Assembly: GCA_012295275.1 (NCBI GenBank)
Contig: CM022677.1
Coordinates: forward strand, 26,226,001 to 26,290,000
DNA from: Chrysomallon squamiferum
Lineage: Eukaryota; Animalia; Mollusca
Reading direction: 5' to 3'
DNA length: 64,000 nt
The notes beneath the pieces were generated by a model. The model saw only the letters and a program-made list of their open reading frames with translations, was not told where the DNA came from and ran no database searches. A program made the translations under genes and the position numbers. Below are positions 422-63,900 of the stretch, piece after piece (the first letter of the stretch is position 1; each line of letters starts with the position of its first letter).

Positions 422-604
422 TGAATGGAGGATGGTCAGCTTGGACAAGACAAAATGTACAAACCTGTCAGTCAAACTGTCGCAGAACTGTGACATTAGT
501 AAGAACTTGTTCAAACCCAGCACCTTCTAATGGTGGAAGTCAGTGTAGTGGAGACAGCCAAACTACAATCACAGAAAGCTGTTCTGGTGGACTGTGTGGT
601 AGAG
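422..604 (+). CDS. Gene A exon: TSP1 domain (CQSNC subtype)
   Basis: tag|TGAATGGAGGATGG...AGAG|gtgaga; 183 nt, phase 1-1; [23 protein letters not shown]. Confidence 0.9.
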
Positions 605-61000: not shown

Positions 61001-63900
61001 ATAAACAAATCCTTTCCAATAAATGTACTAAATATTAGTTCACTATTAAACTGCATTTACACTCTCAGCATATTAATAGGATTATTATTAATAATATTAG
61101 TATATAATTATTTAAAATTACTATAGATATTTGGTTTAATATAATGTTATTAATTTATATAAATTATATAAACTAATATTATTAGTTGAGCATTACTTTA
61201 AGTATCCTTCCTTCAGTGAATGGACAGTGGTCAGCCTGGACAAGACAGACTGTTGGCTTTTGTCTGTCAACTTGTAAACGAACTGTATCACTAGTTAGAA
61301 CCTGCACAAATCCCTCTCCATCAGGTGGGGGTTCGCAGTGTGTTGGAAGTACAACTAGTACTATTACAGAAGATTGCACAGGAGGCCAATGTCAAAGATG
61401 TAATGCTAGTGATATTTCTTGTTACTAACATCTATCTATCAATCTAAATATATATCTATATCTGACATAATCTGCCCATCTTTCTGCCTATACATATCTA
61501 AGTCTGCCTGCTTGATGTAATTTAAATTTATTCATAAATATCATCACCTGTCTCTTTATCTATTTCTTGACTTGTAGATGTATTGTAATGTTAAATTACA
61601 TATAATTAGTTTATTTATTATATATATATACTATTCACTATTTTACTAACAGAAAGTTTAACTTGTGAACTGATATTGATATTGTTAATGCCAGCTGACT
61701 CAAAGCAGTATTTTTAGGATGTAAAGTTTCTTCAACTATTTTAGTTGATGAGTTTTGTATTGTACAAATCAACGTTCTGTAGTTAAATTTAAACATAAAT
61801 TTCTTTCAAACATTTAACATTCTAGTGTTTACTGATTAAAAGAAATATTAAATTGTATTCCCTTAAGTGAATGGACAGTGGTCAGCTTGGACAAGACAGA
61901 CTGTTGGTTATTGCCAATCAAATTGTCAAAGATCTGTGACATTATACAGAACATGCACAAACCCTGCACCATCAGGTGGTGGGTCTCAGTGTGTTGGAAG
62001 TAATACTAACACAATCATAGAAGCCTGCACAGGAGGTTCATGTAACAATAATAGAGGTGACTGTTTTATTTTTTGTGGTAAACAGCAGAACACTAAACAT
62101 AAGTCATCAGTTATAAATTAATTATATACGTACTCACATATTATTAAGATAAAAGACTTTAAAAATAGAAACACTCTTTAAATTAATTAGATTAACAAAA
62201 AGTCTCTTCATGAAGTCTGCAGTTTCTGTGAGATTACATTTTTAAGACAACAGTATTTATTTTTTTACTAAGAGAAAATAATGTGTCTTGTGGTAAACTT
62301 AAATATTATTCATTTAGTTGATGGACAATGGTCAGCTTGGACAAGACAGTCTGTTGGCACATGCCAGTCAAACTGTCGTAGAACTGTGACATTATATAGA
62401 ACATGCACAAACCCTGCACCAGCAAACGGTGGGTCTCAGTGTGCTGGAATTAATACTAACACAATCACAGAAGCCTGCACAGGAGGTTCATGTAACAATA
62501 ACAGAGGTAATTATCTTACTTTAAGCAGCAAAGTAAAGAAGCTTGAAATTGTTCCACTGATCAGTTCAAACTGATCCTGAATTAAATGCTTTATCTGCTT
62601 ATATTAATATAAATTACTTATTGAATTTTATGGAGGCTATAAAAAAATGTTTCAGTTGACATTCTTGATGAATTCAATAGATTAAAAACAATGAACATAA
62701 TTTTGAGCATATGTGTCCTTTCTCAAGCTCACCGTAATTATGATAGCATTTGCTTTACATTACTGACTTTGTTATTAATGTTAAGTTTTAGATTTATTTG
62801 TTTTGCAATGTTTTTGACAGACATATATCCAAACAACCCCACCAAAAATGTATATTCTCTGAATAATGCTATTTAAAACTAAATAAATAAACAAGTCACA
62901 TATATAGATACATAAACACTAAGATTTCTCTTCATTTTAATAATAATATACCATATACAAAAACAAATCATCAATTTTATGAATTTTACATCTGAAAATA
63001 TACATGTCTCAACATAACTTAAGACATTTTATTACTGCAGTAAGAAAGGAAAACAAACATAAAAGAACTGCTCAGGGAATAAAAAAAGATATAATAATAA
63101 ATTGTAGAATATTTCCTTCTGTAAATGGACAATTTTTTTTTTTTTTTTAAGGCAAATTATTTCAATAATTTAAAAAAGGAAAGAAAAAGTGAAGTTTATA
63201 AAATGTATCCTGAATGTAAATAAAACAAAATATTGATACTTTAGTGAATGGTCAGTGGTCAGCATGGACAAGACAATATGTTGGTTATTGCCAATCAAAT
63301 TGTCAAAGGTCTGTGACATTATACAGAACATGCACAAACCCTGCACCATCAGGTGGTGGGTCTCAGTGTGTTGGAAGTAATACTGACACAATCATAGAAG
63401 CCTGCACAGGAGGTTCATGTAACAATAACCGAGGTGATTTTCATTTTATAATGAATAATGATAGCAGAAAACAATTGAACAGGCACAACAAAGTCAACAG
63501 CATAAACAAATCCTTTCCAATAAATGTACTAAATATTAGTTCACTATTAAACTGCATTTACACTCTCAGCATATTAATAGGATTATTATTAATAATATTA
63601 GTATATAATTATTTAAAATTACTATAGATATTTGGTTTAATATAATGTTACTAATTTATATAAATTATATAAACTAATATTATTAGTTGAGCATTACTTT
63701 AAGTATCCTTCCTTCAGTGAATGGACAGTGGTCAGCCTGGACAAGACAGACTGTTGGCTTTTGTCTGTCAACTTGTAAACGAACTGTATCACTAGTTAGA
63801 ACCTGCACAAATCCCTCTCCATCAGGTGGGGGTTCGCAGTGTGTTGGAAGTACAACTAGTACTATTACAGAAGATTGCACAGGAGGCCAATGTCAAAGAT
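28005..63900 (+). CDS. Gene B (3'-incomplete): secreted CAP-EGF-ShKT-VWA-TSP1 multidomain protein with repeated VWA/TSP1 modules
   Basis: About 43 exons with compatible phases from a signal-peptide exon to the window end; the frame is broken only in the scrambled segments at 37.5 and 59.3 kb. Confidence 0.8.
28180..28520 (+). repeat. Local dispersed element ending in (CA)n/(GA)n; further copies at ~23580-23850 and ~26755-27145
   Basis: Shared tttttgtgcactgagtctgaatcatcag core; tgtgataccgacggagcagaac in two copies. Confidence 0.75.
29085..29225. repeat. (TA)n microsatellite; others include (CA/GT)n 11034, 12921, 15870, 16638, 26100; (GA)n 23764, 27025, 28429, 45451, 58094; (TTA/AAT)n 21428, 31495, 34380; (TTTTA)n 33935
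   Basis: Directly visible. Confidence 0.95.
29367..29404 (+). CDS. Gene B exon 2: propeptide [13 protein letters not shown] with furin site
   Basis: tttcag|ATGAAAGC...GCCTTT|gtgagt; phase 1-0 bridges the signal exon to the phase-0 CAP exon. Confidence 0.8.
30103..30182. repeat. 17-bp tandem repeat (gtatgttgtgctgcagg)
   Basis: About 4.5 visible copies. Confidence 0.85.
30707..34689 (+). CDS. Gene B CAP/SCP domain and hinge (exons 30707-30859, 31806-31896, 32810-32949, 33092-33186, 34601-34689)
   Basis: [60 protein letters not shown]; phases 0-0-1-0-2-1 are consistent. Confidence 0.92.
34988..35364. repeat. Near-perfect inverted repeat (~120-bp arms) around a spacer with a ~40-nt poly-T
   Basis: 34988-35113 is the reverse complement of 35245-35364. 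Confidence 0.9.
35686..35784 (+). CDS. Gene B exon: EGF-like domain (absent from ORF track)
   Basis: [33 protein letters not shown]; phase 1-1. Confidence 0.88.
36242..36367 (+). CDS. Gene B exon: ShKT-like domain
   Basis: [20 protein letters not shown]; phase 1-1. Confidence 0.82.
36880..37260. repeat. ~72-bp degenerate tandem repeat
   Basis: aagtaagt..gttaactggaaatgg..aaaagaaatatgt recurs at 36991, 37063 and beyond. Confidence 0.8.
37443..38078 (+). CDS. Gene B single-exon VWA domain, with a 75-nt stop-containing insertion (37496-37570) as assembled
   Basis: [36 protein letters not shown]; donor CCAT|gtgagt; TAA at 37535. Confidence 0.85.
38346..38537 (+). CDS. Gene B exon: TSP1 domain
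   Basis: [31 protein letters not shown]; phase 1-1. Confidence 0.9.
38545..38995. repeat. ~114-bp tandem repeat x4
   Basis: accatttataattt/acactcattttctata... recurs at about 38548, 38664, 38778, 38890. Confidence 0.85.
39455..39590 (+). pseudogene. Truncated TSP1 pseudo-exon
   Basis: [26 protein letters not shown] runs into a copy of intron sequence 40054-40150; last two Cys and donor missing. Confidence 0.7.
39774..39962 (+). CDS. Gene B exon: TSP1 domain (alternative acceptor at 39780)
   Basis: [24 protein letters not shown]|gtaagg. Confidence 0.88.
41212..45054 (+). CDS. Gene B module 1: divergent VWA (41212-41538, 42002-42250), microexon 42533-42544, VWA (42895-43211, 43734-43956), TSP1 (44091-44282), microexon 45043-45054
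   Basis: Near-identical to gene A 2048-5107 with the same exon lengths; extra microexon ccag|GAGTCAATGCAG|gtaaga. Confidence 0.87.
44868..44900 (+). pseudogene. Stump of the giant TSP1 exon with TGG>TGA
   Basis: tatag|CC TGA GGT TCA TGG TCA GCA TTC AGT GCT GTT versus 5640 CC TGG GGT TCA TGG TCA GCA TTC AGT GCG GTT. Confidence 0.85.
46271..53297 (+). CDS. Gene B array of 9 single-TSP1 exons: 46271-46459, 46848-47033, 48822-49004, 50284-50466, 50773-50955, 51251-51430, 52226-52408, 52568-52750, 53130-53297
   Basis: All AG/GT flanked, lengths divisible by 3, phase 1-1, WxAW and six Cys. Confidence 0.88.
49430..50050 (+). mobile_element. Decayed RTE-clade LINE 3' fragment
   Basis: Broken frames give LWWFGDV and [15 protein letters not shown]...EAWKE, like RTE ORF C-termini (WFGHV, WxDDIKEWTG, DRxxW), followed by a GACA/GA-rich tail. 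Confidence 0.55.
51796..57560 (+). repeat. Segmental copy of window positions 1-5670
   Basis: Near-identical exons and introns, offset about 51.8 kb. Confidence 0.95.
53871..57711 (+). CDS. Gene B module 2: divergent VWA (53871-54197, 54663-54911), microexon 55201-55212, VWA (55542-55858, 56391-56613), TSP1 (56748-56939), microexon 57700-57711
   Basis: Same exon structure and lengths as module 1 and gene A. Confidence 0.87.
57525..57557 (+). pseudogene. Second stump of the giant TSP1 exon with TGG>TGA
   Basis: Matches the 44868 stump. Confidence 0.85.
59251..59477 (+). pseudogene. Scrambled TSP1 exon (pseudo-exon or consensus artefact)
   Basis: TSP1 exon pieces interleaved with re-used local fragments (tctcattcagtaaatggacaatggt x2, aaaccctgcacca x2); frame broken. 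Confidence 0.65.
59820..63900 (+). CDS. Gene B array of 7 single-TSP1 exons: 59820-60008, 60744-60932, 61217-61399, 61868-62056, 62318-62506, 63245-63433, 63718-63900
   Basis: Phase 1-1 exons, [17 protein letters not shown]. Confidence 0.88.

What the first reader, a model, noticed from the sequence alone, without database searches (positions are those of the whole stretch)
422..63900. Tandem pair of giant modular secreted proteins linking a CRISP-like head to a Pif/BMSP-like tail
Seen: gene B starts signal peptide-RKKR-CAP-EGF-ShKT-VWA and continues into VWA/TSP1 modules near-identical to those of gene A, and gene A ends with 29+ TSP1, CBM14 x3 and LamG3. Known: VWA-CBM14-LamG3 is the molluscan Pif/BMSP shell-matrix architecture, and CAP-EGF-ShKT is a CRISP-like architecture. 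Inference: both genes are copies of one multi-thousand-residue CAP-EGF-ShKT-(VWA/TSP1)n-TSP1 rod-CBM14-LamG3 protein, an architecture I do not recognise as described. It could be a chitin-anchored scaffold of shell, radula, cuticle or adhesive/mucus.
Basis: partly seen in the sequence, partly recalled or inferred. Interest (0 to 1): 0.85.

Follow-up and report, generated by a model that had tools for sequence, protein, structure and literature searches.

The report
Giant CRISP-headed chitin-anchored snail matrix proteins
Two neighbouring snail genes encode parts of very large secreted proteins: RNA shows a CRISP-like head spliced onto adhesion domains, and relatives in a vent snail and abalones carry that head and a chitin-binding tail in one predicted protein, so this undescribed family likely works as a long strut tying chitin fibres to other matrix proteins in skin, scales or shell coat.

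Summary
Gene A (422-16810) is a clean 19-exon, 2,848-aa frame: VWA/TSP1 modules, a 5,367-nt exon with 29 TSP1, one CBM14 plus two CBM14-like domains, and an uninterrupted LamG-fold domain. Gene B (28005 to beyond the window) starts signal peptide-RKKR-CAP-EGF-ShK-like. RNA contigs from 3 of 3 RNA runs laid splice it onto VWA1 and TSP1 and skip a 75-nt assembly insertion.

A's upstream and B's downstream flanks could not be read. But a Gigantopelta aegis model (XP_041356051.1) holds every module type, head to tail, in the same order at 46-64% identity, and two abalone models join the same head and tail. Each B repeat unit keeps a stub of the giant exon.

The architecture is thus in databases as 'uncharacterized' or 'SCO-spondin-like', but seven literature searches found no description. 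The closest described design is PifCCP. The acidic/basic LamG insert of Pif is absent, so it is likely an organic-matrix spacer and linker on chitin, not a mineral nucleator. A scaly-foot snail sclerite protein matches gene A's layout by domain coordinates only. New variant of a known kind; interest 0.5.

The parts
422..1497 (+). Gene A: three single-exon TSP1 repeats (422-604, 764-946, 1330-1497); the gene begins upstream of the window
   Evidence: the third groups with G. aegis P0024 repeat at 645
2048..3391 (+). Gene A: VWA2 with degenerate metal site (DESEL), two exons, plus a 12-nt micro-exon (3380-3391)
   Evidence: Pfam VWA_2 weak, E 0.014; 48% to P0024 701-890, clade support 1.0
3717..4777 (+). 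Gene A: VWA3 with intact DxSxS...TDG motif, two exons, GC donor
   Evidence: Pfam VWA E 4e-15 and 8e-12
4916..5107 (+). Gene A: TSP1 exon preceding the giant exon
5640..11006 (+). Gene A: 5,367-nt exon with 29 tandem TSP1 repeats (rod)
   Evidence: one clade, support 0.996; 93% of its sampled words are in RNA run X1
11269..12009 (+). Gene A: last TSP1 exon (11269-11466) and a 15-nt micro-exon (11995-12009)
12434..13760 (+). Gene A: CBM14 (12434-12631) and two CBM14-like modules (13003-13188, 13614-13760)
   Evidence: Pfam CBM_14 E 4e-7, E 6e-4, no hit; 41-61% to relatives' tails
14289..16810 (+). Gene A: complete, uninterrupted LamG-fold domain in four exons, ending at the stop codon
   Evidence: fold from relative P0001
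21700..21750 (+). Intergenic relic resembling the first repeat of a giant exon
   Evidence: tblastn 69% over 16 aa, E 4e-4 within the window
28005..29404 (+). Gene B: signal-peptide exon (28005-28074) and pro-segment exon with RKKR (29367-29404)
   Evidence: Haliotis relative has RQKR at the same place
30707..33186 (+). Gene B: CAP domain in four exons; both metal-site histidines replaced
   Evidence: 58% to P0024, which hits Pfam CAP at E 1e-19
34601..36367 (+). Gene B: hinge (34601-34689), EGF-like (35686-35784) and ShK-like (36242-36367) exons
   Evidence: cysteine spacing; EGF>ShK joint seen as RNA loose ends; 64% to P0024
37443..38078 (+). Gene B: VWA1 exon (DxSxT...TDG); 37463-37537 is an insertion absent from RNA
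   Evidence: Pfam VWA E 5e-24
38346..39962 (+). Gene B: TSP1 exons 38346-38537 and 39780-39962, with a truncated one at 39455-39586 between them
41212..53297 (+). Gene B repeat unit 1: VWA2-VWA3-TSP1, stub, micro-exon, nine TSP1 exons
44868..44899 (+). Stub of the giant exon's first ~32 nt with a stop codon (unit 1)
53871..63900 (+). Gene B repeat unit 2: VWA2-VWA3-TSP1, stub, micro-exon, seven intact TSP1 exons and one scrambled one; runs off the window
57525..57556 (+). Second stub of the giant exon with the same stop codon (unit 2)

Best explanation
Genes A and B are expressed tandem paralogs of a gastropod family whose full-length product likely runs signal peptide-RKKR-CAP-EGF-ShK-like head, VWA/TSP1 units, TSP1 rod, CBM14 cluster, LamG, and likely acts as a secreted strut that anchors on chitin by its tail and holds other matrix proteins at a distance. 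Shown: the frames and splice sites, the head-to-VWA splice in RNA, RNA holding the giant exon, lower exon than intron divergence between copies, and head and tail in one predicted protein in three other species. Inferred: secretion and furin-type cleavage at RKKR; chitin binding by the CBM14 cluster; cation-dependent protein binding by VWA1 and VWA3 (motifs present) with VWA2 as a metal-free interface; a rod of 31 consecutive TSP1 in A, about 150-170 nm at roughly 5 nm per repeat (size recalled, from no call); a CAP head that binds a ligand or partner without the two-histidine metal site. Size would be about 3,300 aa for a one-unit form and at least 5,200 aa if B ends like A. The likely site is chitinous epithelial matrix (sclerite, skin cuticle, shell coat).
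For: RNA joints in 3 of 3 RNA runs laid, all from one study. Upstream contig lengths of 527, 676 and 918 nt fit cumulative head exons of 514, 667 and 775 nt (only 30 letters were shown). P0024 matches all 10 module queries at 46-64% best identity (lowest: LamG 46%, a TSP1 47%), in the same order; VWA2 and VWA3 group with their P0024 counterparts at support 1.0 and 0.98, VWA1 at only 0.60. P0028 and P0059 have CAP (43%) and tail (41% CBM cluster, 28-30% LamG) in one model. Both B units keep a stub of the giant exon right after the same TSP1 exon that precedes it in A. Exons differ 0.6-1.1% and introns 2.4-4.4% between copies. No LamG insert: 55-59 aa between the two conserved motifs in 10 of 10 proteins against 138-1,438 aa in most Pif/BMSP (PMC11291548). 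Gene A is basic (pI 8.6, D+E 7%). Scaly-foot sclerite protein Csqv2.0S_3702_12.0 has Pfam VWA 2-164, TSP1 177-239 and a rod from 241, as gene A does from its VWA3 Met; it was seen in 6 of 6 sclerite samples, with transcripts highest in mantle (298) and scale epithelium (229) (PMC11871041 supplement). Abalone chitin-binding 'SCO-spondin-like' genes are up in chitin-rich pigmented epithelium (PMC13544226 section 10).
Against: Neither flank was read, so head and tail on one molecule is not shown for this species. The relatives are automated RefSeq models, and P0024 lacks its N-terminus. The sclerite protein matches by coordinates only: 3 of 17 SMART ends are identical, 13 are shifted 3-7 residues, the last TSP1 implies about 25 rather than 29 rod repeats, no CBM14 is listed for it, and its scores are low (2.7-7.5). 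It is also transcribed in foot, oesophageal gland and gill (109, 84, 23). The abalone genes were not matched to these sequences. dN/dS rests on 8-20 changes. No binding was tested. 3 of the long abalone relatives scanned (P0009, P0010, P0025) have no CAP head.
Confidence: 0.6

Rival explanations
1. Same architecture, but the protein is mainly a surface-defence or mucus protein: the CAP-ShK head and TSP1 rod would bind microbes or lipids, and the tail would only tether it to a chitinous surface.
For: The head's best solved relatives are CRISP/CAP proteins. The RNA runs that hold it are labelled metatranscriptomic. The similar scaly-foot gene is also transcribed in foot, oesophageal gland and gill. 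Limpet pedal mucus holds TSP1- and ShKT-bearing proteins (PMC7333891 passages).
Against: This gene's CAP lost both histidines. None of the 14 limpet proteins tabulated has this layout. The similar scaly-foot protein was recovered from sclerites.
Confidence: 0.17
2. It is a Pif/BMSP-type shell protein that would guide calcium carbonate crystal growth.
For: VWA...CBM14/CBM14-like...LG order; the LG motifs resemble by eye those printed in PMC11291548; G. aegis paralogs are named 'protein PIF-like'; highest transcript level of the similar scaly-foot gene is in mantle.
Against: No acidic/basic LG insert, and a basic pI. The 3 CAP rows in the peltospirid shell and sclerite domain tables belong to other proteins (file cut when stored). 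VWA3 is 37% identical to a collagen VI domain, while the similar scaly-foot VWA is 24% to Pif and 34% to Lottia BMSP-like, so no special closeness to Pif is seen.
Confidence: 0.12
3. A and B share a middle but not both ends (A without CAP, or B without the tail), or the tail-then-head order and unit number are partly assembly errors.
For: Abalone cluster members lack CAP. The window has scrambled spots, and 59790-61499 repeats at 62288-64000 with 99.2% identity.
Against: P0024 has both ends with the same middle; giant-exon stubs sit in B; the units differ 2.4-4.4% in introns and carry different TSP1 arrays; run X5 shows more than one version of the head region; relatives lie several to a scaffold in G. 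aegis and Haliotis, judged by equal longest-contig lengths.
Confidence: 0.11

Closest known systems
Gigantopelta aegis uncharacterized LOC121373452 (XP_041356051.1, P0024, 2,078 aa)
   Same: CAP-hinge-EGF-ShK-like, VWA1, TSP1s, degenerate VWA2, VWA3, TSP1s, CBM14 cluster, LamG in the same order; 46-64% identity by module.
   Different: Only 11 TSP1 found and no 29-repeat rod; VWA3 duplicated instead of whole units; CAP keeps both histidines; third CB-like module missing in the model; automated annotation only.
Haliotis rufescens LOC124146845 (XP_048242657.1) and H. cracherodii XP_071104575.1 ('SCO-spondin-like')
   Same: Signal peptide, RQKR, CAP-EGF-ShK-like head and CBM14 cluster-LamG tail in one model (full sequence read for the first, BLAST hits for the second).
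   Different: Middle has Ig domains and EGF-like repeats, one VWA and 10 TSP1.
PifCCP subfamily of Pif/BMSP shell proteins (PMC11291548)
   Same: VWA, then a long run of small repeated domains, then CB domains and a complete LG domain.
   Different: Rod of sushi, not TSP1; no CAP-EGF-ShK head reported; bivalve prismatic layer.
Pif and BMSP
   Same: VWA, CBM14 plus CBM14-like domains, LG; a dibasic cleavage motif.
   Different: They have a long insert in LG (acidic/basic and mineral-binding in Pif), an internal rather than N-terminal cleavage site, and no TSP1 or CAP.
CRISP proteins (CAP-hinge-ShK-like domain)
   Same: CAP, hinge and six-cysteine terminal module; top solved hits at E 1e-28.
   Different: An EGF-like module is inserted, the head is fused to a 3,000+ residue matrix protein, and the metal-site residues are lost in gene B.

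Membership tests
Pif/BMSP family (PMC11291548) | VWA domain falls in the Pif/BMSP VWA clade | not testable with these tools
   No Pif or BMSP sequence was returned by any search. Indirect: similar scaly-foot VWA to Pif E 1e-9, 24%, just short of the paper's 1e-10 filter.
Pif/BMSP family (PMC11291548) | CBM14 and CBM14-like domains downstream of VWA | tested here: met
   One CBM14 above cut-off, one weak hit, one cysteine-rich module without a hit.
Pif/BMSP family (PMC11291548) | LG domain (whole or split) after the CB domains | tested here: met
   Relative P0001 residues 101-286 modelled at block pLDDT 60-92; Foldseek hits are LamG/ConA folds; Atlas rows name Laminin_G_3. No Pfam sequence hit.
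Pif subfamily | Long acidic/basic low-complexity insert in LG that binds aragonite | tested here: not met
   59 aa between motifs, 10% D+E, 8% K+R.
BMSP subfamily (bivalve type) | Four tandem N-terminal VWA domains | tested here: not met
   N-terminus is CAP; VWA1 stands alone, VWA2-VWA3 are pairs.
Pif/BMSP family (PMC11291548) | Found in shell matrix or mantle-specific | tested here: inconclusive
   A coordinate-matched protein is in the sclerite table and broadly transcribed; identity with this gene is unproven.
CRISP | CAP domain | tested here: met
   58% to P0024, Pfam CAP E 1e-19; profile hits CRISPs at E 1e-28.
CRISP | Two His and two Glu at the cleft (motif recalled; the His positions are visible) | tested here: not met
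   Gene B: both His replaced, one Glu replaced by Gln; relatives keep both His. Read from the assembly, not checked in RNA.
CRISP | Hinge directly followed by a terminal ShK-like domain in a small protein | tested here: not met
   EGF-like module lies between them and RNA continues into VWA1.
ShKT domain | Six cysteines ending C-x3-C-x2-C; ShK fold | tested here: inconclusive
   Spacing 9-8-10-3-2 fits (consensus recalled); no Pfam hit; head model unusable, pLDDT 37.
SCO-spondin (database label of relatives) | vWFD, C8, TIL, LDLrA and CTCK domains (PMC7333891) | tested here: not met
   None among the Pfam hits of 19 window exons or 11 relatives; only TSP1 is shared.

The most novel reading that the evidence does not exclude
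An unrecognised gene cluster of abalones and vent snails encodes chitin-tethered molecular struts with a fixed CRISP-like head and chitin-LamG foot, whose middle is rebuilt independently in each lineage (TSP1 rods of 18, 29 and 31 repeats expanded separately), so repeat number would set spacing in the matrix; the scaly-foot snail would have co-opted an expanded version from skin cuticle into its chitinous scales.
Probability: 0.3. Interest if true: 0.75.

Novelty: new variant of a known kind. Interest (0 to 1): 0.5.

Why it matters
It puts a defined family behind a set of mislabelled 'SCO-spondin-like', 'hemicentin-like' and 'PIF-like' gastropod models. It extends the VWA-chitin-binding-LamG design beyond mineralised shell, and links it to a CAP head kept since the abalone and vent-snail lineages split (Palaeozoic, recalled). 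It offers a testable candidate for how non-calcified chitinous parts, such as scaly-foot sclerites and pigmented abalone skin, are cross-linked and spaced. It also shows why such proteins are missed: repeat-rich assemblies break them, and annotation splits them.

Tried and rejected
No whole genome was held, so the flanks stay unread. Word-indexed protein searches with single exons found nothing (LamG exon: 0 of 713 candidates; VWA1 exon: 0 of 1,487); the relatives came. JGI metagenome scan with the VWA3 exon: 0 of 461 pattern matches confirmed. PDB sequence search with the tail: no hit under E 0.09. AlphaFold model of the head: pLDDT 37, discarded. The first TSP1 tree used a pattern that caught only 4 of 20 B repeats; it was redone with 148 repeats. 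Scaly-foot shell protein Csqv2.0_7049_32.46 had 61-aa TSP1 spacing but is astacin-CUB-TSP1, so unrelated. Foldseek's top tail hits are clostridial neurotoxin binding-domain folds at 7-13% identity, alongside neurexin, perlecan LG3 and NEL: a shared beta-sandwich, not kinship. A cephalopod origin, first guessed from the microsatellites, was dropped when the nearest proteins proved to be Gigantopelta and Haliotis. Pseudogene status of B was rejected for VWA1 by RNA but not tested for the two damaged TSP1 exons. Four look-ups in earlier scan findings returned nothing. No Atlas look-up of the head was obtained.
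Full report
Observation. Six-frame translation shows all coding pieces on the + strand of an AT-rich, microsatellite-rich animal locus. Gene A builds as 19 exons from 422 to a stop at 16808-16810, 2,848 aa with no internal stop; all acceptors are AG, donors GT except one GC. Order: three TSP1, VWA2, VWA3, TSP1, one 5,367-nt exon with 29 TSP1 repeats, TSP1, three cysteine-rich modules, and a 194-aa final domain. 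Gene B starts at 28005 with a hydrophobic leader, RKKR, four CAP exons, hinge, EGF-like and ShK-like exons (300 aa, no stop), then VWA1, TSP1 exons and two units of VWA2-VWA3-TSP1-(TSP1)n. It is 2,483 aa with 20 intact TSP1 before it leaves the window. Pfam on 19 single exons supports VWA, TSP1, one clear and one weak CBM14 and, weakly, CAP; EGF, ShK and LamG get no hit.

Is the head joined to the body? As assembled, VWA1 is broken by 75 bases. The giant exon is held by RNA runs X1-X3 (0.93, 0.43, 0.29 of 556 sampled words) and by X5. Laid on 36236-38085, 3 of 3 RNA runs gave a contig running ShK exon, GT..AG joint 36367-37443, then VWA1, skipping 37463-37537 in frame. Loose ends match the EGF exon before and the TSP1 exon at 38346 behind. 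X5 covers introns, has depth 12 over the insertion against 71-127 beside it, and shows alternative intron flanks and two versions of part of VWA1, so more than one head version exists (paralogs or alleles). The three RNA runs are one study, and contigs can mix near-identical paralogs.

Are A and B the same design? A 1-5671 equals B 51796-57556 at 94%, and B's units match each other at 95%. Exons differ by 0.6-1.1%, introns by 2.4-4.4%; non-synonymous rates (0.005-0.006) are below synonymous (0.010-0.027), on 8-20 changes. In A the TSP1 after VWA3 leads into the giant exon. In both B units the same intron leads into about 32 nt of the giant exon's start, carrying the same stop, and then AT-rich sequence. 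B's units were therefore copied from a template that had the giant exon, which predicts a last unit like A's. No genome was held, so this was not read directly.

Relatives. A full HMMER search with the first LamG exon gave 12 proteins; 10 were looked up, and the 7 with names are from Gigantopelta aegis and Haliotis. None of the 8 scanned had CAP. A search with one of them (P0004) among 1,179-3,365-aa proteins gave 33 hits, 2 with CAP: G. aegis XP_041356051.1 (P0024) and H. rufescens XP_048242657.1 (P0028); 28 others were collagen VI-type proteins and 3 were Haliotis 'SCO-spondin-like' entries or isoforms without CAP counted among the top five (P0025-P0027). P0024 matches all 10 module queries in order at 46-64%; P0028 and H. 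cracherodii P0059 have the head and tail around an Ig/EGF/TSP1/VWA middle. In a VWA tree VWA2 and VWA3 pair with their G. aegis counterparts (1.0, 0.98) and VWA1 weakly (0.60). In a tree of 148 TSP1 repeats from 8 proteins, the 29 giant-exon repeats (0.996), 18 single-exon window repeats (0.82) and 31 repeats of Haliotis P0010 (0.97) each form their own clade; 18 repeats of P0009 group without support here (0.86) (FastTree, midpoint root). The rods therefore grew independently. The source is inferred to be a peltospirid snail.

Tail and head. An AlphaFold model of the G. aegis tail P0001 gives a confident beta-sandwich at 101-286 that matches LamG/ConA folds (neurexin, perlecan LG3, NEL). The LG domain has no insert in 10 of 10 proteins checked. 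PMC11291548 reports inserts of 138-1,438 aa in Pif/BMSP and complete LG in only 2 of 34, PifCCP and PifN. PifCCP, with a sushi rod between VWA and CB domains, is the closest described design. A head profile hits CRISPs best (E 1e-28). Gene B has lost both cleft histidines that the three relatives keep. VWA3 has DxSxS and TDG, VWA1 DxSxT and TDG, VWA2 neither.

Where it may act. In the supplement of PMC11871041, the sclerite protein Csqv2.0S_3702_12.0 has Pfam VWA 2-164, TSP1 177-239, a rod from 241 and a last TSP1 at 1790-1852. Gene A counted from its VWA3 Met gives 2-164, an end at 239 and a rod from 241. Of 17 SMART ends compared, 3 are identical, 13 shifted by 3-7, and the last implies about 25 repeats: a close paralog or ortholog, matched by coordinates, not by sequence. 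It was found in 6 of 6 sclerite samples at low scores and is transcribed most in mantle and scale epithelium, but also elsewhere. No CBM14 is listed for that model. [quoted passage not shown]

Mechanism. Best reading (0.6): a secreted, furin-trimmed strut whose CBM14-LamG foot binds chitin, whose TSP1 rod spaces, and whose VWA domains and CAP head bind partners in an organic matrix. Rivals: surface defence or mucus (0.17), mineral-directing Pif-like protein (0.12), different ends or assembly error (0.11). Every functional step is inferred.

Novelty. Seven searches of the held library found no description of this architecture; one search served to find the peltospirid papers. Subscription papers are mostly missing from the library. 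Seen: PMC11291548, first ninth of the text, sections 12 and 17, passages; PMC11871041, outline, sections 7, 8, 15, passages, term searches in supplement 3 (cut when stored; one file too large and one without text were not read); PMC7142155, PMC7333891 and PMC13425148, passages only; PMC13544226, passages and section 10, supplements not seen, and they may name the genes. Verdict: real, expressed, and conserved across at least three other species in two gastropod lineages; in databases but apparently undescribed; a new variant of the VWA-chitin-binding-LamG matrix design. Interest 0.5.

Noticed in passing
window 18700-28600: The intergenic stretch holds decayed duplicates of itself, including copies of B's upstream and first-intron sequence (19298-20553 = 24818-26070 at 95%; 23299-24034 = 26496-27331 at 75%; 26754-27116 = 28186-28524 at 74%), and a tandem array of about 82-bp period at 22037-23443.
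   Followed up: partly
window 4777, 43956, 56613: The VWA3 exon uses a GC donor; A has GCAAGT while both B units have GCAAAT, a likely weaker site that could favour skipping.
   Followed up: no
window 59790-61499 and 62288-64000: A 99.2% identical 1.7-kb duplication inside B's TSP1 array: very recent or an assembly double.
   Followed up: no
window 3380, 11995, 42533, 45043, 55201, 57700: Micro-exons of 12-15 nt act as linkers between modules; not checked in RNA.
   Followed up: no
window 5640-11006: The giant exon alternates two repeat types (about 61 and 63 aa) at about 65% DNA identity between stretches, so it is older than the 94-95% unit duplications; all 29 repeats keep WxxW and CxxS/TC motifs, candidate C-mannose and O-fucose sites (motif meaning recalled).
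   Followed up: partly
proteins P0006, P0008-P0011, P0025-P0027: Haliotis has many cluster members with the same CBM14-LamG tail behind Ig, VWA and TSP1 arrays but no CAP, labelled hemicentin-like or SCO-spondin-like.
   Followed up: partly
PMC11871041 supplement 3, Csqv2.0S_3702_12.x: Neighbouring models 12.22, 12.56, 12.75 and 12.78 share the scale-epithelium and mantle expression of 12.0 and have multi-copy G. aegis orthogroups in three cases; they may be further fragments of this cluster.
   Followed up: no
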